A stretch of 64,000 nt of DNA from Chloroflexota bacterium (GTDB lineage: Bacteria > Chloroflexota > Limnocylindria > P2-11E), in NCBI GenBank assembly GCA_005881885.1, contig VBDX01000133.1:15461-79460 (forward strand). Reading direction: 5' to 3'. Under the pieces are notes generated by a model. That model did not search any database. It was not told the DNA's origin and was given only the letters and a program-made list of their open reading frames with translations. A program made the translations under genes and the position numbers. This document shows positions 5 to 10,836 of the stretch, piece after piece (the first letter of the stretch is position 1; the number at the start of each line of letters is the position of its first letter).

Positions 5-1873
5 ATGAAGATCAACCTCGTCGACACGCCCGGTTACGCCGACTTCGCCGGCGACCAGCACGCCGCGCTGCGGGTCGCGGATGCCGCGATCGTCTTTGTC
101 GATGCGTCCGCCGGGGTCCAGGTCGGCACGCAGACCGTCTGGTCCGAGCTCGAGAAGGGCCAGACGCCGCGCGTGGTGGTCGTCGGCCGCCTCGATCGGG
201 AGAACGCCGACTTTGACGAGGTTCTCGGGCAGCTCCGCGAGGCCTACGGCATCCGCGTAGTACCCCTGCACGTGCCTCTCGGCGAAAAACAGGAGCTCAA
301 GGCCACGATCGACCTGCTCCACGGGCAGATCCTGAAAGGTCCGAAGGATCCCGTCGCCGAGCTTGCGAAAGACGAAGAGGCCGAGCGCGTGGGCCAGTAC
401 CGCCAGCAGCTCGTCGAGTCGATTGTCGAGACCGACGAGGATCTGCTGACCCGCTATCTCGATGGCAAGGAGCTTGCGTACGACGAGCTCCGAGACGCGC
501 TCCATGCGGCGGTCCGCGAAGGGAAGGTCATCCCGGTCGTCGCCACGTCGGCGCACAAGCACGTCGGATATGCGGCGCTCCTCAACACGATCCGCGAGAT
601 GCTCCCCTCGCCCGCCGAAGCGGGATCGGTGATCGGGCGGTCGGCGTCGGGAGAGGAAGTCGCGCGCAAGCCCGATCCGGCGGACAAGCTCTCGGCATTC
701 GTCTTCAAGACCCTCGCCGATCCGTTCGTCGGCAAGCTCAGCTACGTCCGCGTGTACTCGGGAACGCTGCACCACAACGCGCAGGTCTACGACGCGACGA
801 AGAAGGAGACCGAGCGTGTCGGTCAGATCTTCTTCCTCCGGGGTAAGGAGCAGGAAGCGACCGAGGCGGTCGGCGCCGGCGACATCTGCGCCATCCCCAA
901 GCTCACCGCGACGACGACCAACGCCACGCTCTGCGATAAGGACGCCGTCATCCTCTACGACCCGATCGACTTCCCACCGCCTTCGTTCTCCGTGGCCATC
1001 GAGCCGTCGAGCAAGGCCGATCTGGACAAGCTCGCCACTGCGCTCCATAAGCTCACGGACGAGGATCCGACCTTGCACGTCCGCCGCGAGGATGCGACGC
1101 ACGAGACCATCTTGTCGGCGATCGGCGAGTCGGCGATCGAGGTCGCGGTGCATCATCTGAAGAACAAGTTCGGCGTCCAGGTCGACATGCGGACGCCCCG
1201 GGTCCCCTACCGCGAGTCGATCCGTTCGAAGGCGCAGGCGCAGGGTCGCTACAAGCGGCAGACCGGCGGCCACGGGCAGTTCGGCGATGTGTTCCTCGAG
1301 ATCGAGCCACAACCCGCGGGATCAGGGGTTGTGTATGCCACGCGGATCGTGGGCGGATCCGTCCCACGGAACTTCTGGCCCGCTGTCGAGAAGGGCGTCC
1401 GTGAGACCGCGGAGAGAGGGGTCATCGCGGGATACCCGCTGTCGGACTTCAAGGCGACGCTCTACGACGGGAGCTTCCACCAGGTCGACTCGAGCGAGAT
1501 GAGCTTCAAGATCGCCGGATCGCTCGCCCTGCAGAACTGTGTGAAGGAAGCGCAGCCTTTCCTGCTCGAACCGATCATGAACGTTGAGGTCTTGGTGCCC
1601 GAGGAGCAGATGGGCGACGTGCTCGCCGATCTCAACTCGCGACGGGGCCGAGTGCTCGGGATGGAGAGCACGGGCGCGGGACACCAGCTCATCAAGGCGC
1701 ACGTCCCCATGGCCGAGACCTTCCGCTACGCGACGGACCTTCGCTCGATGACCGGCGGGCGCGGGACCTTCAGCGCGGAGATCCTTGGGTACGAGGAGTG
1801 CCCATCGCACATCGCGCAGAAGGTGATCGCGGCACACGAAGGGCAGGCTGAGGAGACGGCAGCGGCGCGCTAG
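5..1873 (+). CDS. EF-G-like translational GTPase paralog, 5' end outside the window; switch-II reads DTPGY and the G4 motif reads GRLD instead of DTPGH and NKxD
   Basis: 622-aa ORF running off the window start. Domains III-V align to EF-G (GYPLSDF...HQVDSSEMSFKIA...LEPIM...RSMTGGRG...ECPSHIAQKVI). The N-terminal 'INLVDTPGYADF' and 'VVVVGRLDREN' replace the canonical DTPGH and NKxD motifs. Confidence 0.8.
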   Translation: MKINLVDTPGYADFAGDQHAALRVADAAIVFVDASAGVQVGTQTVWSELEKGQTPRVVVVGRLDRENADFDEVLGQLREAYGIRVVPLHVPLGEKQELKATIDLLHGQILKGPKDPVAELAKDEEAERVGQYRQQLVESIVETDEDLLTRYLDGKELAYDELRDALHAAVREGKVIPVVATSAHKHVGYAALLNTIREMLPSPAEAGSVIGRSASGEEVARKPDPADKLSAFVFKTLADPFVGKLSYVRVYSGTLHHNAQVYDATKKETERVGQIFFLRGKEQEATEAVGAGDICAIPKLTATTTNATLCDKDAVILYDPIDFPPPSFSVAIEPSSKADLDKLATALHKLTDEDPTLHVRREDATHETILSAIGESAIEVAVHHLKNKFGVQVDMRTPRVPYRESIRSKAQAQGRYKRQTGGHGQFGDVFLEIEPQPAGSGVVYATRIVGGSVPRNFWPAVEKGVRETAERGVIAGYPLSDFKATLYDGSFHQVDSSEMSFKIAGSLALQNCVKEAQPFLLEPIMNVEVLVPEEQMGDVLADLNSRRGRVLGMESTGAGHQLIKAHVPMAETFRYATDLRSMTGGRGTFSAEILGYEECPSHIAQKVIAAHEGQAEETAAAR

Positions 1874-2505
1874 GCTTTCCCCAGGGAATGCTCAGCTCGG
1901 CGCAGGTTTGGCTGAGGAGGCTGCCTCTCGTACTGGGCCTTTCCGGCCAGGAATATGAGCGGGCCACTCAAGACATCTCTGATGAACGGCTCGTTCTTTC
2001 TTCTGAGCCTTCCGAATTCGGTGCGGGTTAGTTCGACGAGATTCACCTCGCGGCGGAGTTGGCGCTCGACGCTGCCGAGAGCCCTTCGCAGGAGGTCGCT
2101 GTTCGGGGATCCCACGATCAGTACGTCGAGATCGCTTGTTGGCCGATCAGTGCGGGCGGCGTACGACCCAAAGATCCAGGCAGCGTCGATACCGGCGAGG
2201 CCGCCCAGCGCTCTGCGCAACGTCCCTTCAATCCCGATTGTCCGCTGCACGAGAGCCCGAATCTCGTTGGCGCTCGGCGAGTCAGTGTCGATCTCGTAGG
2301 TGCGATTTCGGCCCTGGATGGCTGAACGGAGAACCCCGGCACGCTCGAGCCGATCTAATTCACGTCCGACGGCCGAGGCGGCACGCCCAACCCCTCGCGC
2401 AATCTCGCGGACGTGCCCACGAGCACCAGGTCGGCTGAAGAAATACAGGAGGATCTCCTTACGCAGGGAAGATCGCCCGAAAACCAGCACGTCCAATACG
2501 TACAT
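1870..2505 (-). CDS. Winged-helix (ArsR-like) DNA-binding domain fused to a minimal nucleotidyltransferase (MNT / Pol-beta superfamily) domain
   Basis: N-terminal wHTH (HVREIARGVGRAASAVGRELDRLERAGVLRS). C-terminal 'WIFGSYAARTDRPTSDLDVLIVG' matches the GS...D.D nucleotidyltransferase motif. ATG at 2505; stop forms a palindromic CTAG overlap with the EF-G-like stop. Confidence 0.6.
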   Translation of the reverse strand: MYVLDVLVFGRSSLRKEILLYFFSRPGARGHVREIARGVGRAASAVGRELDRLERAGVLRSAIQGRNRTYEIDTDSPSANEIRALVQRTIGIEGTLRRALGGLAGIDAAWIFGSYAARTDRPTSDLDVLIVGSPNSDLLRRALGSVERQLRREVNLVELTRTEFGRLRRKNEPFIRDVLSGPLIFLAGKAQYERQPPQPNLRRAEHSLGKA

Positions 2506-2528
2506 TTGTACCCGAAATCGGTTACAAT
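2500..2528. promoter_or_regulatory. AT-rich divergent control region with a 12-bp palindrome GTACA-TT-TGTAC over the start codon of the wHTH-MNT gene, and a TTACAAT (-10-like) element facing the RusA-wHTH gene
   Basis: This is the only markedly AT-rich stretch nearby. There is a perfect inverted repeat, GTACA / TGTAC. Both flanking genes encode similar wHTH domains, so it is a candidate shared operator. Confidence 0.4.
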
Positions 2529-2552
2529 CGAAAGCACGCCTAGTCCGTCGGC

Positions 2553-3345
2553 CTTGGGCGGCTTGGATCCTTACTCTCTCGCGCCCAGCGACTGGCAGCT
2601 CTTCGCGGAGCTACGTGTTGCTGGCCGACCATCGAGCATCTCCGGGCCCCACGGTGCGGCCTGGCGAGCTGCCGTCACGAGTGCGGTCACGCTTGCTCGA
2701 ATCGAACCTCCTGCCGGAAAGAGATTCTTCGTCCGGATCACATTTGCGACGCCTCGACAGACGACGCGCAGCGCGTTCTGGGATATCGACAACCTGGTCA
2801 AGCCGACACTTGATGCGATGACGGGCATATTTGGGGCGCGCCGGTGGACCGGACTGCCTCAGGCCGCCGATGATCAGGTCGACGGTCTGTACGCCGAAAG
2901 GCGCGAGGTACAAGCCGGGGAAGCCTCCGGGGCCGAGATTGCCATCTTCGTTAGGAATGCCGCAACGGAACCAGCCATAGCGGTTCGAACCAAACGGCTC
3001 AAACAGTCAGCAAGGCCCTCTCTCTTCGGCGCATCGGTGGTACGGCAGGCGATTCTTCGACATCTCTTCGAACCTCCAGCGCGCGCTGTGCATGTTCGTG
3101 AGCTCGCACGTCGGATCGGACACGATCCTGGTGCGGTCAGTCGCGAGCTGGGCCGGCTGCAGCATTCGGGCTTGGTCGTGTCGGAATGGATCGGGCGATC
3201 GAGAACTTATCGTGCCTCCTCGACCGTTCTCGCGCGCGACGTTCAACGATTGCTTAAACGAGTGCCTTCGTCTGCAGCCGAAAGACAATCGTCGTTGGCG
3301 CGCGACGCGGAACCGGTCGCACGGCGGACCGCAGGCACTTTGTAG
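2553..3345 (+). CDS. RusA-like Holliday-junction resolvase domain fused to a C-terminal winged-helix DNA-binding domain (start uncertain, probably TTG near 2553-2562)
   Basis: 'RITFATPRQTTRSAFWDIDNLVKPTLDAMTG ... DDQVDGLYAERRE ... AEIAIFV' aligns with the E. coli RusA catalytic core (RRRDLDNLQKAAFDALT ... DDAQVVDYRVVK). The C-terminal 'HVRELARRIGHDPGAVSRELGRLQHSGLVVS' is a paralog of the wHTH in the divergent neighbour. The 2413 start in the ORF track would overlap that gene. Confidence 0.55.
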
Positions 3346-3352
3346 CCCGCTG

Positions 3353-3823
3353 CTACACGCTGCCGCGCGCCACCGCGCGGATGCTCGCGAGATGCCCTCG
3401 CGTGTGCGGAAGCACGATCCGGCGGACGATGCGCTCGACGTCGAATTCGTGACCCTGATAGGTCACCGCGACGCGGCGAAGCTGCGCCTCGCTCATGACA
3501 TCCAGCAGCCTAAGCAAGCGCGATCTCCCCTTCCGGAGCTCCCGCCGGACGGCCTCCTTCGTGGGGACTCCTCGAGCGGCGACCCGCGCGTTCAACGCGT
3601 CAGTCGCTTCCCAGTCGAATACGAAGGGTGCTTTGCCGTCTCGCGCCAGTGCGATGAAGCTCGCCTGCCGGCGGAGTCCGAGCGCGATGTGGAGCGCCGT
3701 TACGGCCACGGACCAGCATTCTGCTTCGCAGGTCCGCTCCCACGCCTTGGCGTCGAGCGCTTCGATCGTCGCGGTGGCTTCGTCGATCACGGCCTCCACC
3801 TCGGGGACAACCGCGATGTTCAT
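3353..3823 (-). CDS. Hypothetical helical-bundle protein (DinB_2/ClbS-like), 156 aa from an internal ATG
   Basis: The ORF track gives 3353..3961. ATG at 3823 (MNIAVVPEV...) avoids the GC-rich N-terminal extension. Only weak family resemblance. Confidence 0.4.
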   Translation of the reverse strand: MNIAVVPEVEAVIDEATATIEALDAKAWERTCEAECWSVAVTALHIALGLRRQASFIALARDGKAPFVFDWEATDALNARVAARGVPTKEAVRRELRKGRSRLLRLLDVMSEAQLRRVAVTYQGHEFDVERIVRRIVLPHTRGHLASIRAVARGSV

Positions 3824-4176
3824 GCGCGCAGGCGCGGCACGATCCCATTCGCCCAGCACGCAGCGACGATCGCGAGACCGCCCGCGACGCCCGCGGGCAC
3901 GTGGTACCAGGCAGCGTAGAAAGCGAACGCCGCGCCGAAGAGCCGGAGCGCCTGCACCCATGGCGGCATGTAGCGGCGAACGTACGCGCCCATCGCGCTG
4001 CGGCGATAGCGGTCGAGATCGACCTCACTCATGAGCGTCGCCGAGACCAGAACCGGCGGCAGGACCGCGACGACGAGGCCCGGGACGAGCAGGTGCCGCC
4101 AGAGGAGGTCGAGCGCCATGACCGCGGACGCGACGTCCGTGAACACCTTCGCCGGATGGATCTGGTGGTAAAGCAC
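3820..4176 (-). CDS. Small hydrophobic membrane protein immediately downstream of ndh (start uncertain)
   Basis: Hydrophobic ORF (LLVPGLVVAVLPPVLVSATLM ... FGAAFAFYAAWYHVPAGVAGGLAIVAACW). The 4302 start in the track overlaps ndh. A GTG at ~4176 lies just after the ndh stop. Confidence 0.3.
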   Translation of the reverse strand: MLYHQIHPAKVFTDVASAVMALDLLWRHLLVPGLVVAVLPPVLVSATLMSEVDLDRYRRSAMGAYVRRYMPPWVQALRLFGAAFAFYAAWYHVPAGVAGGLAIVAACWANGIVPRLRA

Positions 4177-4190
4177 TCGCCGCGCGTGGG

Positions 4191-5447
4191 TCAGGGCGTG
4201 TTCGCCACCAGCCGTCCGGCGAAGAACGAGAGCACCCATTCGACGAGCAAGGTACCGCGATTCCGCACCCCGAGGAGCTGCATGAGGTAGTTCACGCGCC
4301 ACACCGTCCAGGCAGGCAGACCGCCCATCACGAAGCCGCCGAGCTTGGCGAACTCGGCCGCCGCCTGCGTTCGTCCGAGCGCGACGAGATCGCCCTTCCG
4401 GTGGTAGACGAACGGCGTCGTCGGCGCTCCGCGCACCAGGGCCAGCAGATTCCGAGCCGCGGCCGGCGCCTCGAGGACGGCGACCTGCGCCAGCTGCGGG
4501 AGGCCCTTGCCCTGGTTTTCGAAGTACGCCGCGTCGCCGAGCGCGAGGACATCGTCGCGGCCCGAAGCGCGGAAGCGGTCGTCGACGATGATGCGGCCGT
4601 CTTTCGCTCTTCGGAGGTCGAGCGAGGCGACCAGAGGATTCACTTTGACGCCGCCCGACCAGACGATCGTCCGCGCGCGGAGCTGCGCGCCGTCCTTCGT
4701 ACGGACGACGCCCGGGCCGATCTCTGAGACGAGCGTCTTCAGAAGGACCCGCACGCGCTGCTGCTCGAGGCGTCGCGCCGCTATTTTTGACAGCCGCGGG
4801 TCCATCCCCGGGATCACGCGATCGGCACCATCGAGGAGGTGGATCGTCACGTCGGCGTAGAAGTCGATCGTCGGATAGATGCGACGCAGCGTGTGGTCCA
4901 TGAGATCGCGGAGCGAGCTCGCGAGCTCCACGCCGACGGGTCCGGCGCCCACGATGATGAAGGTGAGCTGCTCGCGCCGGCGCGCGATGTCGGTCTCGGT
5001 GGCGGCGGCCTCGAACACATCAAGCACGTGCCGCTTGAGTGCTTCCGCGTCGGCGAGCCACTTCACCGGCATCGCGTTCTCGCGGACGCCCGGAATACCG
5101 AAGTCGTTGGTGACCGAGCCGAGCGCGATCACGAGGTGGTCGTACGGCAGCTCGCCCTCCGCGGTGCCCACCCGGCGGTGCTTGAGGTCTATCGAGGAGA
5201 CCTCGGTCTGCAGGAAGCGAAAGCCCACCGGCGCCGTCGCGTCGCGGAGCGGGTAAGCCACGGCGTGCGGCGGCAGCTCCCCGGTGCAGACCTGGTAGAG
5301 GAGCGGGGTGAAGAGGTGGTAGTTCTGGCGATCGACGAGGGTGAGGTCCAGCTCGTCGCGCCGCATTCGCCGCTCGAGGTGACGGACCAGATGCAGTCCG
5401 CCAAATCCGCCGCCCAAAACGACGATCTGCTTTGGAGCGTTCTTCAA
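4191..5447 (-). CDS. ndh: Type II NADH:quinone oxidoreductase (NDH-2)
   Basis: 'QIVVLGGGFGGLHLVRHL', two Rossmann dinucleotide-binding motifs, ~418 aa. TTG start overlaps the stop of the upstream TPR gene (TTGA). Confidence 0.85.
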   Translation of the reverse strand: MKNAPKQIVVLGGGFGGLHLVRHLERRMRRDELDLTLVDRQNYHLFTPLLYQVCTGELPPHAVAYPLRDATAPVGFRFLQTEVSSIDLKHRRVGTAEGELPYDHLVIALGSVTNDFGIPGVRENAMPVKWLADAEALKRHVLDVFEAAATETDIARRREQLTFIIVGAGPVGVELASSLRDLMDHTLRRIYPTIDFYADVTIHLLDGADRVIPGMDPRLSKIAARRLEQQRVRVLLKTLVSEIGPGVVRTKDGAQLRARTIVWSGGVKVNPLVASLDLRRAKDGRIIVDDRFRASGRDDVLALGDAAYFENQGKGLPQLAQVAVLEAPAAARNLLALVRGAPTTPFVYHRKGDLVALGRTQAAAEFAKLGGFVMGGLPAWTVWRVNYLMQLLGVRNRGTLLVEWVLSFFAGRLVANTP

Positions 5448-7102
5448 TTCGCTTTTCCGGTCGCGGCCTCCGCGCGCTCGAGCTCGACGAGATATGCGTG
5501 CGTCAGCGGATCGTCCGCGTTGATCGCGCTGGCGAGGCGCAGCCGTTCGCGCGCGGCGCCGAGGTCACCGGCGCGAAGGTGCGCGAAGCCTGAGTCGGCA
5601 AGGTAGCCGGCGTCGCGCGGGCGCAGCGACGCCGCCTGATCGAGGAGCGCAAGGGCTTCGTTCTGCGATCCCGAAGCGAGCAGTGCGACGCCAAGCTCGT
5701 GCAGGACGTCGGGCTGGCCGGGAGCGAGCTCGAGCGCGCGCCGGAACGAGCTCGCAGCTGCGGGGAAGTCTTCCTGCTTACGAGCGACCAGCCCGAGACC
5801 GAAGTGCGCCTCCCACAGGTTCGGGTCGAATCCCAGCACTCTCATGAATGAGGCACGAACCTCGTCGTACGACAGCGGATTCGTGGAGAGCGCGGCCCGG
5901 CCGGCGCGCTCGAGATCGGTCTCGAGATCCGGCCGCTCGAGCCCGAGGCGCAGGCGTCTCGCCTGGCCGACCGTATCGGCGTCGGTCCCCGAGCTGATGA
6001 TCGCGCCGAGCGCGTGGCGCGCGTCGTCGATGCGTCCGGCAGCGATGTGCGCGCGCGCGAGGTGCGCTTCGGCGCTCGGACGGCCGTTCGCGGCGGCGCG
6101 CTCGAGGTACGAACGCGCACCTTCGTGGTCACCCTTTCCGAGCGCGAGCACGCCTAGAAGCTCCTGCGCACGGCCGAACGACTCGCTCCCTGCCGTGATC
6201 CGCCGAAGATGGGCGGCGGCCTGGCCCGGCGCGCCTTCGGCCACGTACAGCTCGGCCAGCATCATCACGTCGACATCGCGGAGCGGCCGCAGCGCGTGTG
6301 CGTGCTCCAGCGCCACGATCGCGTGGGTGGTCTCGCCGATCTGGCGGAGGAGCTCAGCGAGCATGTAGTGCGAGCGCCACGACATTGGCTTCGTCTCGAT
6401 GACTTCCTCGAGAGCGCGCGCCGCCCGCTCCTCGTCTCCGCGCTCGACGGACTCGGCGGCCAGCACGAGCAGCCGGTCCTCGGCCCGCAGTGACGCCGGG
6501 TCCGCACGGACCGCGGCGACGTAGAGCTGGAACGCGAGGACCCGCGCGGCGTCGGCCGCGGCGGGATCGCCCGCGCGCAGCAGCGTCGCGTTCACTTCTT
6601 CTTCGAGCCCGCCCAGTAGCGCGCGGTAGGCGGTCTCGTTCGCTGTCTCCGGCTCGTCGAGTCCCGCTTGGGCGGGCACCCCCAGCGCGCCGACGAGCCA
6701 CGCGGCGAGCGCCGGTTCTGCCCGATGGAGCTCCCCCTCGGCCACCGCGAATTCGCGCGACGCGACCGCACGGCGTGCCGCGACGTCCACCAGGGTCACC
6801 AGGAAGGCTTGACCGCGCTCGTCTTCCCGGTACAGGCCGGTGAGCGCGTGGGTCGTCCCGAGCGACTCGCCGTAGCGCACGGCCAGATCGGGGTCGGGTG
6901 TCGACCCGAAGATCAGGTATCCGGCGTCGCGCTTGGTCTCCGGCATGGCCACGAGGAAGACCGGCCGCAGCTCCAGCGCGGGATCGTCGGCGAAGCGCTC
7001 CACGAGCCGGCGGGCCACCTGCCGACCGATGATGCCCGCCTCAGCGTCACGGCCCTGCGCGCCAAACGGCACGACCGCGACGACGGGGCGCGGGGTCGTC
7101 AC
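5444..7102 (-). CDS. Tetratricopeptide-repeat protein
   Basis: Multiple TPR-like helical repeats (AxxYxxLG, EEAxxxxxRALELxP). GTG start overlaps the tyrS stop (GTGA). Confidence 0.7.
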   Translation of the reverse strand: MTTPRPVVAVVPFGAQGRDAEAGIIGRQVARRLVERFADDPALELRPVFLVAMPETKRDAGYLIFGSTPDPDLAVRYGESLGTTHALTGLYREDERGQAFLVTLVDVAARRAVASREFAVAEGELHRAEPALAAWLVGALGVPAQAGLDEPETANETAYRALLGGLEEEVNATLLRAGDPAAADAARVLAFQLYVAAVRADPASLRAEDRLLVLAAESVERGDEERAARALEEVIETKPMSWRSHYMLAELLRQIGETTHAIVALEHAHALRPLRDVDVMMLAELYVAEGAPGQAAAHLRRITAGSESFGRAQELLGVLALGKGDHEGARSYLERAAANGRPSAEAHLARAHIAAGRIDDARHALGAIISSGTDADTVGQARRLRLGLERPDLETDLERAGRAALSTNPLSYDEVRASFMRVLGFDPNLWEAHFGLGLVARKQEDFPAAASSFRRALELAPGQPDVLHELGVALLASGSQNEALALLDQAASLRPRDAGYLADSGFAHLRAGDLGAARERLRLASAINADDPLTHAYLVELERAEAATGKAN

Positions 7103-8262
7103 CGGAAGCGGATGCGTGCGAAGCTGCGCTTACCCACCTGGACCCACGGTTCGCCCTTGACCGCCACGGAGGTATCGAGCTTGGCGAGCTCGCCCTCCAC
7201 ACGCACCCCGTTCTGCTCTACGAGCCGCCGCGCGGCGGCCTTGCTCGGAGCGAGCTTGGCAAGGACGAGCAGGTCGACGATGGAGATCTCCTTCGCGCCA
7301 TTCGCCTTCACGTCGATCGTCGGCATGTCGACCGGCGCCCCGCCTTCTTTGTGCACGCGGTCGAACGCGCGCTCGGCCTCCTCGGCGGCAGCCGCGGAGT
7401 GGAGCTCGGTTGTGATGGTCCGAGCGAGCTTTCGTTTCGCCTCACGCGGGTGCAGCTCCTTGGCCGCGATCGCCCGGAGGGTCGCCTGCACCTCGCTCAT
7501 CGGGAGCTCCGTCGCCCATTCGAAGTAGTGCGACATGAGCTTGTCTTCGATCGACATGACCTTGCCGTAGACGTCGTTCGGCGGGTCGGTGAGCCAGATC
7601 GCCGTGGCCGGCTTCGACTTGCTCATCTTCTCGCCGTCGAGGCCCTCGAGAAGCTGATTGATGAAGACGCTCTGCGGGCGCTGACCGATCTGTTCCTGGA
7701 GCTCGCGACCGGCGAGTATGTTGAACAGCTGGTCCGTCCCGCCGACCTCGACGTCGGATTCGATCGCGACCGAGTCGTAGGCCTGCAGCAGCGGGTAGAG
7801 GATGTCCTTGATCGGGATCGGCGTCTTCTTCTCGAGGCGTTTGCGGAACTCCTCGCGCGCGAGCATCTGCTGCGTGGTGAAGCGGGACGCGAGACGGATG
7901 ACGTCGCCGAGCCCGAACTTTCCGAACCACTCGCTCTGCATGACGATGCGGACGCCCTCGCGCGGCACGATCTTGTGGAACTGATCGAGGTAGGTCTGCG
8001 CGTTCTCGAGCACCTTCTCGTGGGACATGGTCGGGCGAGCATCGTCGCGGTCGGTCGGGTCGCCGATCTGCGTCGTCCAGTCGCCGACGATGATCACGAT
8101 CTCGTGCCCCCACTCAGCGAAGCGCTTGAGCTTCCGCAGGGGCACGGCATGTCCGATGTGAAGGTTCGGGTGCGTCGGGTCGAAGCCCTGTTTGATACGA
8201 AGCTGACGCTCCCCGGCGCGGAGCTGTTTGGCGAGCTCCTCCTTCACGATGACCTGGCTCAT
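7099..8262 (-). CDS. tyrS: Tyrosyl-tRNA synthetase
   Basis: HIGH motif 'PNLHIGHA', KMSKS motif 'EKMSKS', C-terminal S4-like domain. ATG at 8262 (MSQVIVKEEL); the upstream 395 aa of the track ORF are GC-frame noise. Confidence 0.9.
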   Translation of the reverse strand: MSQVIVKEELAKQLRAGERQLRIKQGFDPTHPNLHIGHAVPLRKLKRFAEWGHEIVIIVGDWTTQIGDPTDRDDARPTMSHEKVLENAQTYLDQFHKIVPREGVRIVMQSEWFGKFGLGDVIRLASRFTTQQMLAREEFRKRLEKKTPIPIKDILYPLLQAYDSVAIESDVEVGGTDQLFNILAGRELQEQIGQRPQSVFINQLLEGLDGEKMSKSKPATAIWLTDPPNDVYGKVMSIEDKLMSHYFEWATELPMSEVQATLRAIAAKELHPREAKRKLARTITTELHSAAAAEEAERAFDRVHKEGGAPVDMPTIDVKANGAKEISIVDLLVLAKLAPSKAAARRLVEQNGVRVEGELAKLDTSVAVKGEPWVQVGKRSFARIRFR

Positions 8263-8487
8263 CGCGCGCGTGAGGAATTCGTCGACTTCGCGTTCTGAAG
8301 GACGGGCCGGCATCAGGGAGAAGGATAGGTGGCGGTTTCGAAGGGGCAGGGGCCCCTGGGCACGGAGTGACGCCCCTTCGGTCGCTACCATGGTCGAATC
8401 GCGCGCTCGAAAACGACGCTGGACCATGCCTTCCGGCGCGGGGCATATCGCTCGAAGCGGCGCCAGGGCGGCGGCTCGTTCAGCGGT

Positions 8488-10836
8488 TTGCGCCTCGCAC
8501 TGCCGTCGGGCCTGCTCGCCATGATCCTCGCGACGGCAGGGCTTCTCGTCGTGGGGGCAGGCGCGGCGCTCGCCTTCTTCACCGAGGACCTGCCCTCGCC
8601 ACAGGATCTCGCCAAGGCCCCGCTCGCGCAGGGGACCAAGGTCTACGACCGGACCGGCAACACGCTCCTTTACCAGTTCTCGGAGGAGAACCGCGAGGTC
8701 GTGGCCTTCGATCAAATCCCACAGGTGCTCGTCGACGCGACGGTCGCGGCCGAGGACAAGAGCTTCTGGAGCAACCCAGGCGTCGACGTGCTCGGGATCA
8801 TGCGGGCCGTCTACGCCGACCTCACCAGCCGCGGAACGGGCTCCGGCGGCGCGTCGACCATCACGCAGCAGCTTGTGAAGCAGCGGATCGTCGGCGGCGA
8901 GCTCTCCATCAAGCGAAAGATTCGCGAGGCCATCCTCGCGATCCAGGTCACAAACACCTATTCGAAGCAGCAGATCCTCGAGCTCTACTTCAATCAGATC
9001 TACTACGGCAATCAGGCGTACGGCGTGAAGGCCGCCGCGCAGACCTATTTCGGGAAGACCGATCTCACTCATCTCACCCTGGCTGAAGCCGCGCTCCTCG
9101 CGGGTCTGCCGCAGGCGCCTTCGGTCCTCGATCCGACCCAGGAGGCGAACGTGGACCGCGCCGAGGAACGGCGCGCCTACGTACTCGACCAGATGGTGGA
9201 GACGGGCGCGATCACCCAGCAGCAAGCCGACGCGGCGAACGCCGTGCCGATCAAGGTCGCCGGCCCGCCGGTCGCGACGATCAAGGCGCCGCACTTTGTC
9301 TTCCAGGTGCGGAACCAGCTGTCGCAGATCCTCGGTGGCGACGAGGCGGCCGTCACTCGCGGCGGCTACCGCGTCACGACCACGCTCGATCTGACCAAGC
9401 AGGAGATCGGCGAGCGGCAGGTGCGCGAATGGGTCGAGGAGCTCCACAACCGCAACGTCTGGAACGCGGCCCTCGTATCGATCGATCCGCGCAGCGGCGA
9501 GGTCCTCACCTACGTCGGTTCGGTCGACTACAACAACCGCGACGATCCGCGCGTGCAGGGCCAGTTCGACGTGGCGGGCATCGGGCTACGTCAGCCCGGC
9601 TCGTCCTTCAAGATGTTCAACTACGTGACTGCGCTCAAGAAGGGCGCGAGCGCGGCGACCGTGGTGGTTGACGCGCGCACCGACTTCACCGGGAAGGCCG
9701 ACCCCACGCGGATGAGCGCGACGGCCTGCGGCTACTGCCCGGAGAACGCCGACCTCCAGTACCACGGTCCGGTGACGATGCGCCAAGCGATCCGCGAATC
9801 TAGGAACGTACCGGCGGTCCGGTTCCTGGCTGAGTACTCGGGCATCGAGGACACCATCCAGACCGCGCATGAGCTGGGCATCACGACGGACATCGACTCG
9901 TCGAAGGTCGGGTTATCGCTGACGCTCGGAGCGCGCGAGGTGCACCTTGTCGACATGGCCAGCGCCTACGGCGTGCTCGCGAATATGGGTGTTCGGATCG
10001 CGCCGACGTACATCCTCAAGGTCGAGGATGCCCGCGGAAAGGTCGTCTGGGAGCACAAGGACTACGAGTCCAAGCGCGTGCTCGACCAGGGGATCGCCTG
10101 GATCATGACCGACATCCTCAAAGACACGACGCAGCCGTCGCGTAACTTCATCTTCGGCCAATGGACGAATATCGGTCGCGTGGCGGCGCTCAAGACCGGC
10201 ACGACCGACAACCTGAAGGACGTGTATTCGGTCGGCTACGTGCCCTCGCTGGTGACCGGGGTGTGGATGGGCAACTCGAACGGCGACCCTATGAGCTCGC
10301 GCGACTTCAACAGCGCGATGGGCCCCGGCCAGCTCTGGCGCGACTACATGAAGGAAGCGCTCACGGACACGCCGCCGTCGGACTGGCAGCGTCCGTCCAA
10401 CGTCGTGAGCGGCACGGTCGTCTCCGCGCCCGGCGCGTTCGGCGGATATGGCTCGGGCCTTCTTCCGTCGAGCCTCACGCCGTTCTCGACCACGGAGTGG
10501 TTCATCAAGGGCACGGAGCCCGCGAGGACCGACGACTGGTTCGTCGCGGGGTGCCAGCTACCCGACGGGTCACGGAAGGTCGCGATGAGGATCCAGGACA
10601 CCCACGCGCCGGCGGCCTTCCAGCGATACACGGACCAGTGGATCCGCGATGCGATCGCCGGCCGGCATACGTACGGCCGGTACACCTGGAACCTCGTGAG
10701 CCCAGATCCCTGCCCGACGCCGTCCCCGACGCCGTCGCCCTCGCCGACGCCGTTCTTCGGGTTCCCCACCCCGACGCCGACGCCTTTCTTCGGCTCGACC
10801 CCTACGCCGCGACCGACCAGCACCAAGAGGCCGTAG
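8488..10836 (+). CDS. Class A penicillin-binding protein (transglycosylase + transpeptidase, PBP1A family) with a C-terminal Pro/Thr/Ser-rich tail
   Basis: N-terminal TM helix, GT51 motifs ([19 protein letters not shown]), transpeptidase domain, and a (PT)n-type tail [29 protein letters not shown] start; ATG at 8521 is an alternative. Confidence 0.85.

What the first reader, a model, noticed from the sequence alone, without database searches (positions are those of the whole stretch)
1870..3345. Divergent pair: wHTH-nucleotidyltransferase (MNT-like) and RusA-resolvase-wHTH fusion sharing a palindromic operator
Two divergently transcribed genes carry paralogous winged-helix domains. One is fused to a Pol-beta-type minimal nucleotidyltransferase (the MNT module of MNT/HEPN-type systems). 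The other is fused to a RusA-like Holliday-junction resolvase core (DIDNLVKPTLDAM matches the catalytic DxDN...DAL motif).

Between them, overlapping the MNT gene start codon, is a perfect palindrome GTACA-TT-TGTAC in the only AT-rich patch of the region. RusA is normally a cryptic-prophage gene, and a RusA-wHTH fusion is not an architecture I recognise. The pair may be a small mobile-element remnant, a DNA-damage/regulatory module, or a toxin-antitoxin-like or defence-associated cassette.
Basis: partly seen in the sequence, partly recalled or inferred. Interest (0 to 1): 0.6.

Follow-up and report, generated by a model that had tools for sequence, protein, structure and literature searches.

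The report
Remodelled MNT toxin-antitoxin locus with RusA-wHTH
A soil bacterium's toxin-antitoxin-like module has lost its usual RNase partner, and beside it sits a very rare fusion of a RusA-type DNA-cutting domain to a copy of the module's own DNA-binding domain; the fusion is real and unusual, but its function is untested.

Summary

In all seven independent M05A relatives examined, three of them syntenic with this window, a HEPN-like M05B gene follows M05A. Here, and in the only other lineage that carries RusA-wHTH, M05B is absent. An exhaustive HMMER scan of 1.84 billion cluster representatives found only those two full-length RusA-wHTH clusters.

The 5+5 palindrome is not significant alone and is broken in four of six near-identical contigs. 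It is, however, one half of a two-inverted-repeat operator (2500-2526) whose layout recurs at the start codon of all nine M05A genes examined.

The prophage or mobile-remnant reading is not supported.

Best reading: a remodelled MNT-HEPN-type module with shared-operator control. A swap of RNase effector for DNase effector is possible but unproven. Interest is moderate.

The parts
1870..2505 (-). PDC-M05A-family gene: wHTH plus minimal nucleotidyltransferase. It is 211 aa if translation starts at ATG 2505; the probable true start is TTG 2496 or GTG 2490. Its stop overlaps the stop of the convergent EF-G-like gene by 4 nt.
   Evidence: ORF list. Pfam Polbeta and NTP_transf_2 are above their cutoffs. 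PADLOC PDC-M05A E=3.6e-43 over residues 12-193. ATG is changed to ACG in 4 of 6 near-identical contigs.
2236..2484 (-). N-terminal DNA-binding module of M05A (about aa 8-90): an ArsR-like winged helix plus a following helix.
   Evidence: Weak ArsR/HVO_A0114/LexA-type hits. Alignment with eight other M05A proteins and the two RusA-wHTH proteins. dN/dS 0.11 against L036.
1996..2211 (-). Pol-beta-type nucleotidyltransferase domain (aa 99-170), carrying G-S-x10-D-L-D and a conserved downstream acidic residue.
   Evidence: PF01909 covers 99-170 and PF18765 covers 105-162. NCBIfam MntA_antitoxin gives a partial hit of 33 bits, below its cutoff of 60. The motif was read from the translation.
2500..2526 (.). 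Operator-like element made of two overlapping inverted repeats that share a central half-site: GTACA-TT-TGTAC (2500-2511) and TGTACCCG-AAAT-CGGTTACA (2507-2526).
   Evidence: Sequence. Conserved as TTACA-CT-TGTACCCG-CGAA-CGGATACA in L001. Unique in the window. The same two-repeat layout abuts the start codon in all 9 M05A loci examined, against background rates of 21% and 5.4%.
2523..2528 (+). TACAAT, a -10-like hexamer for the RusA-wHTH gene that overlaps the right-hand half-site. This is an inference, not a demonstrated promoter.
   Evidence: Read from the sequence. The consensus two-hexamer scan found no full sigma-70 promoter.
2503..2508 (-). AT-rich spacer between half-sites (ACAAAT on the minus strand). 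It resembles a -10 element and lies 7 nt before TTG 2496. Equivalent spacers lie 6-7 nt before the GTG start in L004, L100 and L101, which suggests leaderless mRNAs. This is an inference.
   Evidence: Upstream sequences of nine M05A genes.
2554..3345 (+). RusA-wHTH fusion gene, 263 aa from TTG 2554 (alternative start TTG 2563). The listed ORF start at GTG 2413 is an artefact of ORF extension.
   Evidence: Alignment of start regions with P0002/L001, whose ATG has an AGGAG Shine-Dalgarno sequence. P0002 is a full-length homologue at 48% identity.
2596..2958 (+). RusA-fold nuclease domain (aa 15-135). Catalytic motif D77-I-D79-N-L-V-K83-P-T-L-D87-A-M at 2782-2820; invariant D106 at 2869-2871.
3022..3258 (+). 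C-terminal copy of the M05A DNA-binding module (aa 157-235): winged helix plus the post-wing helix.
   Evidence: BLASTP against gene 1, E=1e-13. PDC-M05A HMM E=4e-14 on residues 157-224. Alignment. ArsR structures are the top structural hits.

Best explanation
The locus is a remodelled MNT-HEPN-type module (PADLOC candidate PDC-M05, similar to type VII toxin-antitoxin systems). It resides in a housekeeping region of an uncultured, high-GC soil bacterium.

Shown:
- Gene 1 is a PDC-M05A protein (wHTH + MNT).
- The HEPN-like M05B gene follows M05A in all seven independent relatives examined. It is missing here and in one other lineage.
- Exactly those two lineages carry, divergently and 57 bp upstream, a protein that joins a RusA-fold nuclease with intact catalytic residues to a copy of the M05A DNA-binding module.
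- The control region carries the family-typical operator of overlapping inverted repeats at the M05A start.

Inferred:
- Each protein dimerises, M05A through its MNT domain and the fusion through its RusA domain. RusA is a homodimer by established knowledge.
- Each dimer places two related winged helices on the TGTAxCC inverted repeats, which flank -10-like hexamers for both directions. The pair would therefore be co-repressed from one operator.
- The RusA-like domain is a Mg-dependent DNA endonuclease that acts as the module's effector in place of the lost HEPN RNase.

Not known: whether the MNT controls the nuclease, by nucleotidylylation or by binding.
For: - M05A membership.
- Composition of PDC-M05: (PMC12988326).
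- M05B is present downstream of M05A in L004/5, L006/7 (split by an IS21-family insertion), L008, L099, L100, L101 and L102.
- M05B is absent from the 64-kb window and from L001/L002.
- Synteny with L001, L008, L099 and L101.
- RusA fold and catalytic residues.
- The fusion's C-terminal half is an M05A-type module.
- The divergent pairing recurs in the only other RusA-wHTH lineage.
- Operator conservation and statistics.
- Purifying selection on both genes (dN/dS 0.11-0.25).
- Accessory-gene codon usage (GC3 0.58-0.69 against 0.87 for neighbours).
- RusA-like proteins can be highly toxic when overexpressed: (PMC10700055).
- Relatives of this RusA subfamily are fused to other nucleic-acid enzymes and sometimes sit next to Mrr, GmrSD or GIY-YIG genes.
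Against: - Only two lineages carry the fusion, so the anti-correlation with M05B (2 against 7) rests on few independent events.
- Divergent orientation is atypical for toxin-antitoxin pairs.
- In near-identical contigs the NTase gene carries a 19-bp frameshifting deletion (L034) and a 36-bp deletion that removes the wing (L036), while RusA-wHTH stays intact. This argues against an essential antitoxin role for the NTase.
- The window's RusA-wHTH has a TTG start with no Shine-Dalgarno sequence.
- The recognition helix of the fusion (AVSREL) differs from that of its neighbour (AVGREL). Binding to the same operator is therefore not assured.
- No promoter passed the consensus scan.
- PDC-M05 itself has no experimental validation.
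Confidence: 0.5

Rival explanations
1. The neighbours are independent. Gene 1 is an orphan antitoxin/repressor left behind after M05B was deleted, and it is slowly decaying. RusA-wHTH is a separate site-directed nuclease or regulator. It owes its position only to the local duplication that supplied its winged helix, and it has no functional coupling to the NTase.
For: NTase lesions occur in 2 of 6 near-identical contigs while RusA-wHTH remains intact. The NTase domain has a higher dN/dS (0.23-0.25) than the RusA domain (0.11). The recognition helices differ. Other members of the RusA-like subfamily have no NTase neighbour.
Against: The pairing, the orientation and the roughly 40-57 bp spacing are kept between two lineages that are only 48-60% identical. 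The operator between the genes is conserved. Substitutions in the NTase are still mostly synonymous.
Confidence: 0.3
2. RusA-wHTH is a housekeeping recombination or repair enzyme: a true Holliday-junction or branched-DNA resolvase. Its winged helix merely adds DNA affinity or autoregulation, and it is unrelated to conflict systems.
For: RusA fold and catalytic residues. Subfamily fusions to repair-type domains: GIY-YIG, MazG-like, DUF1643 and DUF429. Location in a core chromosomal region.
Against: The distribution is extremely narrow for a housekeeping function, with two clusters worldwide. GC3 is atypical. The winged helix is specifically of the M05A (TA/defence) type rather than a generic one. 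Syntenic relatives lack the gene.
Confidence: 0.1
3. The pair is a remnant of a prophage or other mobile element.
For: RusA is classically a prophage gene (established knowledge). GC3 is lower than in the neighbouring genes.
Against: tblastn finds no match in 50,697 phage records, and plasmid matches come only through the wHTH. There are no att-like flanking repeats. The only tRNA lies 56 kb away. M05A occupies the same position next to the EF-G-like gene in four further lineages. The flanking genes are housekeeping genes.
Confidence: 0.05

Closest known systems
PDC-M05 (PADLOC candidate defence system) / MNT-HEPN modules, including type VII MntA-HepT toxin-antitoxin systems
   Same: Gene 1 matches the PDC-M05A models over its full length. 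It has the Pol-beta NTase signature and an N-terminal DNA-binding domain. It has the same overlapping-inverted-repeat operator at its start codon as other M05A genes. It also sits at the same chromosomal position as complete M05A+M05B pairs in relatives.
   Different: The HEPN (M05B) partner is absent. A divergent RusA-wHTH gene is present instead. The NCBIfam MntA equivalog is far below its cutoff (33 against 60 bits).
E. coli RusA and phage RusA-like Holliday-junction resolvases (PF05866; PDB 1q8r, 2h8c)
   Different: Sequence similarity is marginal: Pfam 19.7 bits, with no PDB hit by sequence. There is an insert of about 13 residues before the last Asp. The domain is fused to a C-terminal winged helix. 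The gene is chromosomal with no phage relatives by tblastn. Junction resolution is untested.
Actinobacterial RusA-like subfamily (about 125-aa stand-alone proteins in Micromonospora, Actinoplanes, Solirubrobacterales and others, plus fusions to GIY-YIG, MazG-like, DUF1643 and DUF429)
   Same: These are the closest sequence relatives of the nuclease domain, at 43-53% identity, and WD[IL]DNL[IV]KPTLDAM is invariant.
   Different: None carries a winged helix or has an M05A neighbour. They have no widely conserved gene partner.
AbiE (type IV toxin-antitoxin: AbiEi wHTH antitoxin + AbiEii nucleotidyltransferase toxin)
   Same: It combines a wHTH protein with a Pol-beta-superfamily NTase, and autoregulation through inverted repeats is typical (established knowledge).
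   Different: Here the NTase is of the MNT/M05A type, and no AbiEii/DUF1814 match was listed. Both proteins carry the wHTH. The genes are divergent rather than co-directional.

Membership tests
PDC-M05 (NTase + HEPN candidate defence/TA system) | M05A-type wHTH-nucleotidyltransferase | tested here: met
   PDLC04368 E=3.6e-43, residues 12-193 of the protein against positions 12-195 of the 201-position model.
PDC-M05 (NTase + HEPN candidate defence/TA system) | Adjacent HEPN-like M05B gene downstream of M05A | tested here: not met
   tblastn with the M05B proteins of L008 and L004 finds nothing in the 64-kb window (best E=0.23) or in the L001 gap. The M05A stop overlaps the EF-G-like stop. All seven relatives do have M05B.
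Type VII MntA-HepT toxin-antitoxin | MntA-type adenylyltransferase that modifies a cognate HepT | tested here: not met
   NCBIfam MntA_antitoxin scores 33.1 bits against a cutoff of 60. There is no HEPN gene. Enzymatic activity cannot be tested with these tools.
Pol-beta minimal nucleotidyltransferase (PF18765 / PF01909) | Profile match above the gathering score, and the G-S-x(9-13)-D-x-D motif | tested here: met
   35.4 bits against 26.9 and 31.6 against 21. FGSYAARTDRPTSDLDV is present in the translation.
RusA endodeoxyribonuclease (PF05866) | Profile match above the gathering score | tested here: inconclusive
   The window protein scores 19.7 bits against 22.8. Its closest relatives pass: P0003 28.2, P0006 30.7, P0009 25.2 and the L037 fusion 25.1. 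PHROG RusA-like scores 3.7e-6.
RusA endodeoxyribonuclease (PF05866) | RusA alpha/beta fold | tested here: met
RusA endodeoxyribonuclease (PF05866) | Catalytic residues D70, D72, K76 and D91 (E. coli numbering) | tested here: met
   hhalign aligns D77/D79/K83 (and N80, D87) with D70/D72/K76 (and N73, D80). The RusA query sequence was verified as identical to 1q8r. The equivalence of D106 with D91 is inferred across an insert. D106 is invariant in A2.
RusA endodeoxyribonuclease (PF05866) | Homodimeric, Mg-dependent, sequence-selective Holliday-junction resolution | not testable with these tools
   Requires biochemistry.
AbiE type IV toxin-antitoxin | AbiEii (DUF1814) nucleotidyltransferase toxin with a co-directional AbiEi | tested here: not met
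   Neither Pfam nor PADLOC lists an AbiEii or AbiE match for either protein. The genes are divergent.
Prophage / integrative element | Phage relatives, an integrase, and att repeats or a tRNA target | tested here: not met
   No phage hit. No flanking repeats beyond chance. The only tRNA is at 59.4 kb. The surrounding housekeeping genes (EF-G-like, NDH-2, TPR, TyrRS) are shared with relatives.

The most novel reading that the evidence does not exclude
A RusA-fold DNase has replaced the HEPN RNase as the toxin or effector of an MNT-type toxin-antitoxin/defence module. It wired itself into the module by capturing the antitoxin's own operator-binding domain. This would be a previously undescribed 'MNT-RusA' system in which the nucleotidyltransferase, or shared operator occupancy, keeps a DNA-cutting effector in check.
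Probability: 0.2. Interest if true: 0.65.

Novelty: new variant of a known kind. Interest (0 to 1): 0.4.

Why it matters
If the swap reading is right, it is a clean natural example of effector exchange in a toxin-antitoxin/defence module. An RNase toxin would have been replaced by a DNase that borrowed the antitoxin's DNA-binding domain. That would add the RusA fold to the list of conflict-system effectors.

The family-wide operator layout also gives a testable model for how the still unvalidated PDC-M05 systems are autoregulated. In that layout, overlapping inverted repeats bracket a -10-like spacer directly before the start codon.

If the genes are uncoupled, the finding reduces to a rare, lineage-restricted domain fusion next to an orphan antitoxin.

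Tried and rejected
- **HEPN relic.** I looked for remains of M05B in the window and in the 400-bp gap of L001, using tblastn with relaxed settings and the PADLOC models. Nothing was credible.
- **Mobile-element signatures.** I checked for direct and inverted flanking repeats, tRNA genes, and phage or plasmid relatives. All were negative.
It is not significant. The repeat finder with 6-nt seeds reports nothing there.
- **Consensus promoter scan.** No hit.
- **Second operator type.** The fusion's recognition helix resembles that of the L008-type M05A, so I searched the window for TGGCA/TGCCA inverted repeats. None were found.
- **Conserved gene partner of stand-alone RusA-like genes.** All-against-all BLAST over 82 loci found none beyond close relatives.
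- **More RusA-wHTH proteins.** I used the word-indexed search, genome and metagenome scans, and an exhaustive HMMER scan. Only the window lineage and P0002 turned up.
- **P0064.** This 143-aa protein looks like a third lineage of the same RusA subtype, but no DNA is on record and no full-length relative was found.
- **Sequence search of the PDB with the family profile.** It did not reach RusA. Only fold comparison did.
- **Organism.** It was not identified.
Full report
**What is in the sequence**

The region holds two divergent ORFs: 1870-2505 on the minus strand (211 aa) and 2413-3345 on the plus strand. The left gene ends in a 4-nt overlap with the stop of a convergent EF-G-like gene. The right gene ends 7 nt before the stop of a convergent DinB-family gene. 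The surrounding genes are housekeeping genes: an EF-G paralogue, NDH-2, a TPR protein and TyrRS, with rplT and infC further on.

**Gene 1**

Pfam places a Pol-beta minimal nucleotidyltransferase at residues 99-170, above the gathering score, preceded by weak ArsR/LexA-type winged-helix hits. The decisive match is to the PADLOC models for PDC-M05A: E=3.6e-43, covering residues 12-193 of a 201-position model. According to PMC12988326, PDC-M05 is a two-gene candidate defence system made of a nucleotidyltransferase (M05A) and a HEPN-domain protein (M05B). It resembles toxin-antitoxin modules, and its antiviral role is unconfirmed. The G-S-x10-D-L-D signature and a conserved downstream acidic residue are present, so the enzyme looks competent. 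This was read from the translation.

**Gene 2**

- *Sequence evidence.* The Pfam RusA hit is slightly below threshold (19.7 against 22.8 bits). The closest relatives of the N-terminal domain pass the threshold (25-31 bits), and PHROG RusA-like families match at 3.7e-6.
- *Catalytic residues.* Profile alignment to RusA puts D77, D79, N80, K83 and D87 on RusA D70, D72, N73, K76 and D80. The RusA query sequence was verified as identical to 1q8r. Numbering is from TTG 2554. The invariant D106 probably corresponds to D91, across an insert of about 13 residues; that step is inferred. The block DIDNLVKPTLDAM is invariant in the nine-sequence alignment.
- *C-terminal half.* It is not a generic winged helix. 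It matches the PDC-M05A model at E=4e-14 and gene 1 at E=1e-13 (46% over 63 aa). It aligns through the whole M05A N-terminal module, including the helix after the wing.

**Gene boundaries**

The only full-length homologue is P0002 (48% identity). It starts at an ATG preceded by AGGAG, with no earlier in-frame start codon. That ATG aligns with window TTG 2554, and a second ATG aligns with TTG 2563. The 2413-2553 extension, used in the public 310-aa gene call P0001, is therefore not coding.

For gene 1, four of six contigs that are 97-100% identical to the window carry A2504G, which changes ATG to ACG. The conserved candidates are TTG 2496 and GTG 2490.

**The palindrome**

GTACA-TT-TGTAC is at 2500-2511. 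Taken alone it is unremarkable. A perfect 5-nt-arm palindrome appears in 24% of shuffles of the intergenic region and in 44% of 57-nt tiles of the window. It is also broken by A2504G in four of six relatives.

It is nevertheless part of something real. Its right arm is also the left arm of TGTACCCG-AAAT-CGGTTACA (2507-2526), and this larger element is conserved in the second lineage as TGTACCCG-CGAA-CGGATACA within otherwise unalignable DNA. It is unique in the 64 kb.

I extracted the upstream regions of nine M05A genes. Every one has inverted repeats abutting the start codon, usually as two overlapping repeats that share a central half-site:

- L004: TGAACCG-CAAT-CGGTTCA-TTAT-TGAACC, followed directly by GTG
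- L101: GGGTACATATGTACCC, followed directly by GTG
- L008/L099: TGGCAT-CATATG-TTGCCA-AGA-TGGCAA
- L102: ATGGCATC-GTTTGT-GATGCCAT-ATGGCA
- L006: GTAGCCG-TAAA-CGGCTAC-AATT-GTTGCC

An 8-nt-arm repeat with at most one mismatch occurs in 21% of background 50-nt tiles but in 9 of 9 of these sites. A three-half-site arrangement occurs in 5.4% of background 80-nt tiles but in 6 of 9 sites.

The half-site sequence changes from lineage to lineage while the layout stays the same. That is what one expects of an autoregulatory operator read by the M05A winged helix.

The AT-rich spacer between the second and third half-site looks like a -10 element and lies 6-7 nt before the start codon. This suggests leaderless mRNAs and repression by promoter occlusion. 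On the other strand, TACAAT (2523-2528) overlaps the outer half-site and could serve the RusA-wHTH gene. These promoter assignments are inference; the consensus scan found no full promoter.

**Comparative context**

I examined seven independent relatives of gene 1, at about 50% identity. All have a PDC-M05B (HEPN-like) gene immediately downstream, and in L006/L007 that gene is split by an IS21-family insertion. Three of them (L008, L099, L101) are syntenic with the window: the M05A-M05B pair lies between the TPR/NDH-2 block and the same EF-G-like gene.

The window and L001/L002 lack M05B. tblastn and HMM searches find no relic of it. These are exactly the two lineages that carry RusA-wHTH, divergently and 40-57 bp from M05A.

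I searched for further RusA-wHTH proteins in four ways:

- a word-indexed search of 5.8 billion cluster representatives
- 185,579 species genomes
- JGI metagenomes
- an exhaustive HMMER pass over 1.84 billion representatives

Only the window lineage (contigs L031-L036) and P0002 were found.

The nuclease domain belongs to a small, mostly actinobacterial RusA-like subfamily. Most members are stand-alone proteins of about 125 aa. Others are fused to GIY-YIG, MazG-like, DUF1643 or DUF429 domains, or to an unassigned domain. Some lie beside Mrr, GmrSD or GIY-YIG genes, or next to IS elements. There is no conserved partner and no M05A neighbour. The subfamily has no tblastn match in phage records.

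**Selection and decay**

Against the most divergent near relatives, dN/dS is as follows (counts are small):

| Region | dN/dS |
|---|---|
| RusA domain | 0.11 |
| M05A winged helix | 0.11 |
| NTase domain | 0.23-0.25 |
| C-terminal tails of both proteins | about 0.5 |

Both genes have GC3 of 0.58-0.69, against 0.87 for neighbouring housekeeping genes. That is typical of accessory genes.

Two of six near-identical contigs carry damaging lesions in the NTase gene. L034 has a 19-bp frameshifting deletion flanked by GTCC microhomology. L036 has a 36-bp in-frame deletion that removes the wing of the winged helix. RusA-wHTH has no indel in any of the six.

**Interpretation**

The best-supported reading is a remodelled PDC-M05/MNT-HEPN locus. 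The M05A gene and its operator are retained, the HEPN gene is lost, and a RusA-fold nuclease that captured the M05A DNA-binding module is installed head-to-head, so that one operator lies between both promoters.

Dimerisation through the RusA domain would present two winged helices to an inverted repeat, just as MNT dimerisation would for M05A. RusA is a homodimer by established knowledge. Whether the nuclease functionally replaces HEPN as the effector, and whether the NTase restrains it, is open.

- *For the swap:* the perfect but small anti-correlation with M05B (2 lineages against 7), and the reported toxicity of an overexpressed RusA-like protein (PMC10700055).
- *Against the swap:* the NTase lesions in strains with an intact nuclease, the divergent orientation, and the weak translation signals of the window's gene.

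The main rival is that the two genes are uncoupled, an orphan antitoxin next to a site-directed nuclease. The prophage-remnant idea is not supported.

**Verdict**

The palindrome is real only as part of a larger, family-typical operator. The system is a new variant of a known kind, built on a very rare architecture with no functional data. Interest is moderate (0.4).

Noticed in passing
L006 4554-7752 (and L007): The M05B (HEPN-like) gene downstream of M05A is split by an IS21-family insertion (Mu-transposase-C-like and IstB genes, 4897-7211). tblastn finds its N-terminal part at 4554-4733 and its C-terminal part at 7498-7752.
   Followed up: partly
L053, L049, L056, L084 (MazG-like); L037 (DUF1643); L026 (DUF429); L038/P0003-P0009 (GIY-YIG); L058 and P0069 (unassigned domain): The actinobacterial RusA-like domain is a promiscuous fusion partner of nucleic-acid and nucleotide enzymes. 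In some genomes it lies next to Mrr (L015), GmrSD (L020), GIY-YIG (L010) or cREC_REC (L014) genes. This hints at a conflict or repair role for the whole subfamily.
   Followed up: partly
P0195 (protein of 3282 aa): A giant protein with six matched stretches to the query. It may be a polyvalent or repeat protein containing RusA-like or wHTH units.
   Followed up: no
window 2226-2244 (L034) and 2284-2319 (L036): Near-identical metagenome contigs carry deletions in the NTase gene. One is 19 bp, frameshifting and flanked by GTCC microhomology. The other is 36 bp, in frame, and removes the wing of the winged helix. The neighbouring RusA-wHTH gene is untouched in both.
   Followed up: yes
window 2504: The A/G polymorphism is G in L032-L035. 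It also changes the last base of the -10-like ACAAAT on the minus strand.
   Followed up: partly
window 1718-2283 against L035/L036: The 3' half of the NTase gene and the end of the EF-G-like gene are much more divergent from L035/L036 (about 90% identity) than the rest of the locus (about 97%). This suggests a recombination boundary inside the NTase gene.
   Followed up: no
window 3353-4302 against L008 2938-3800: The DinB-family gene and a small membrane-protein gene lie in the opposite order in the window and in the syntenic locus L008.
   Followed up: no
window 7099-9447 (-) and many other long ORFs: The 782-aa ORF is a TyrRS gene with a long, spurious 5' extension. The high GC content produces many long antisense or shadow ORFs, for example 3092-3919 (+), that are unlikely to be genes.
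   Followed up: no
L004 617-3408: In this MAG the M05A-M05B pair follows three co-directional genes: DUF6932, an XRE-type HTH protein and an unassigned 254-aa protein. An Lhr helicase gene lies just downstream. This may be a larger defence island.
   Followed up: no
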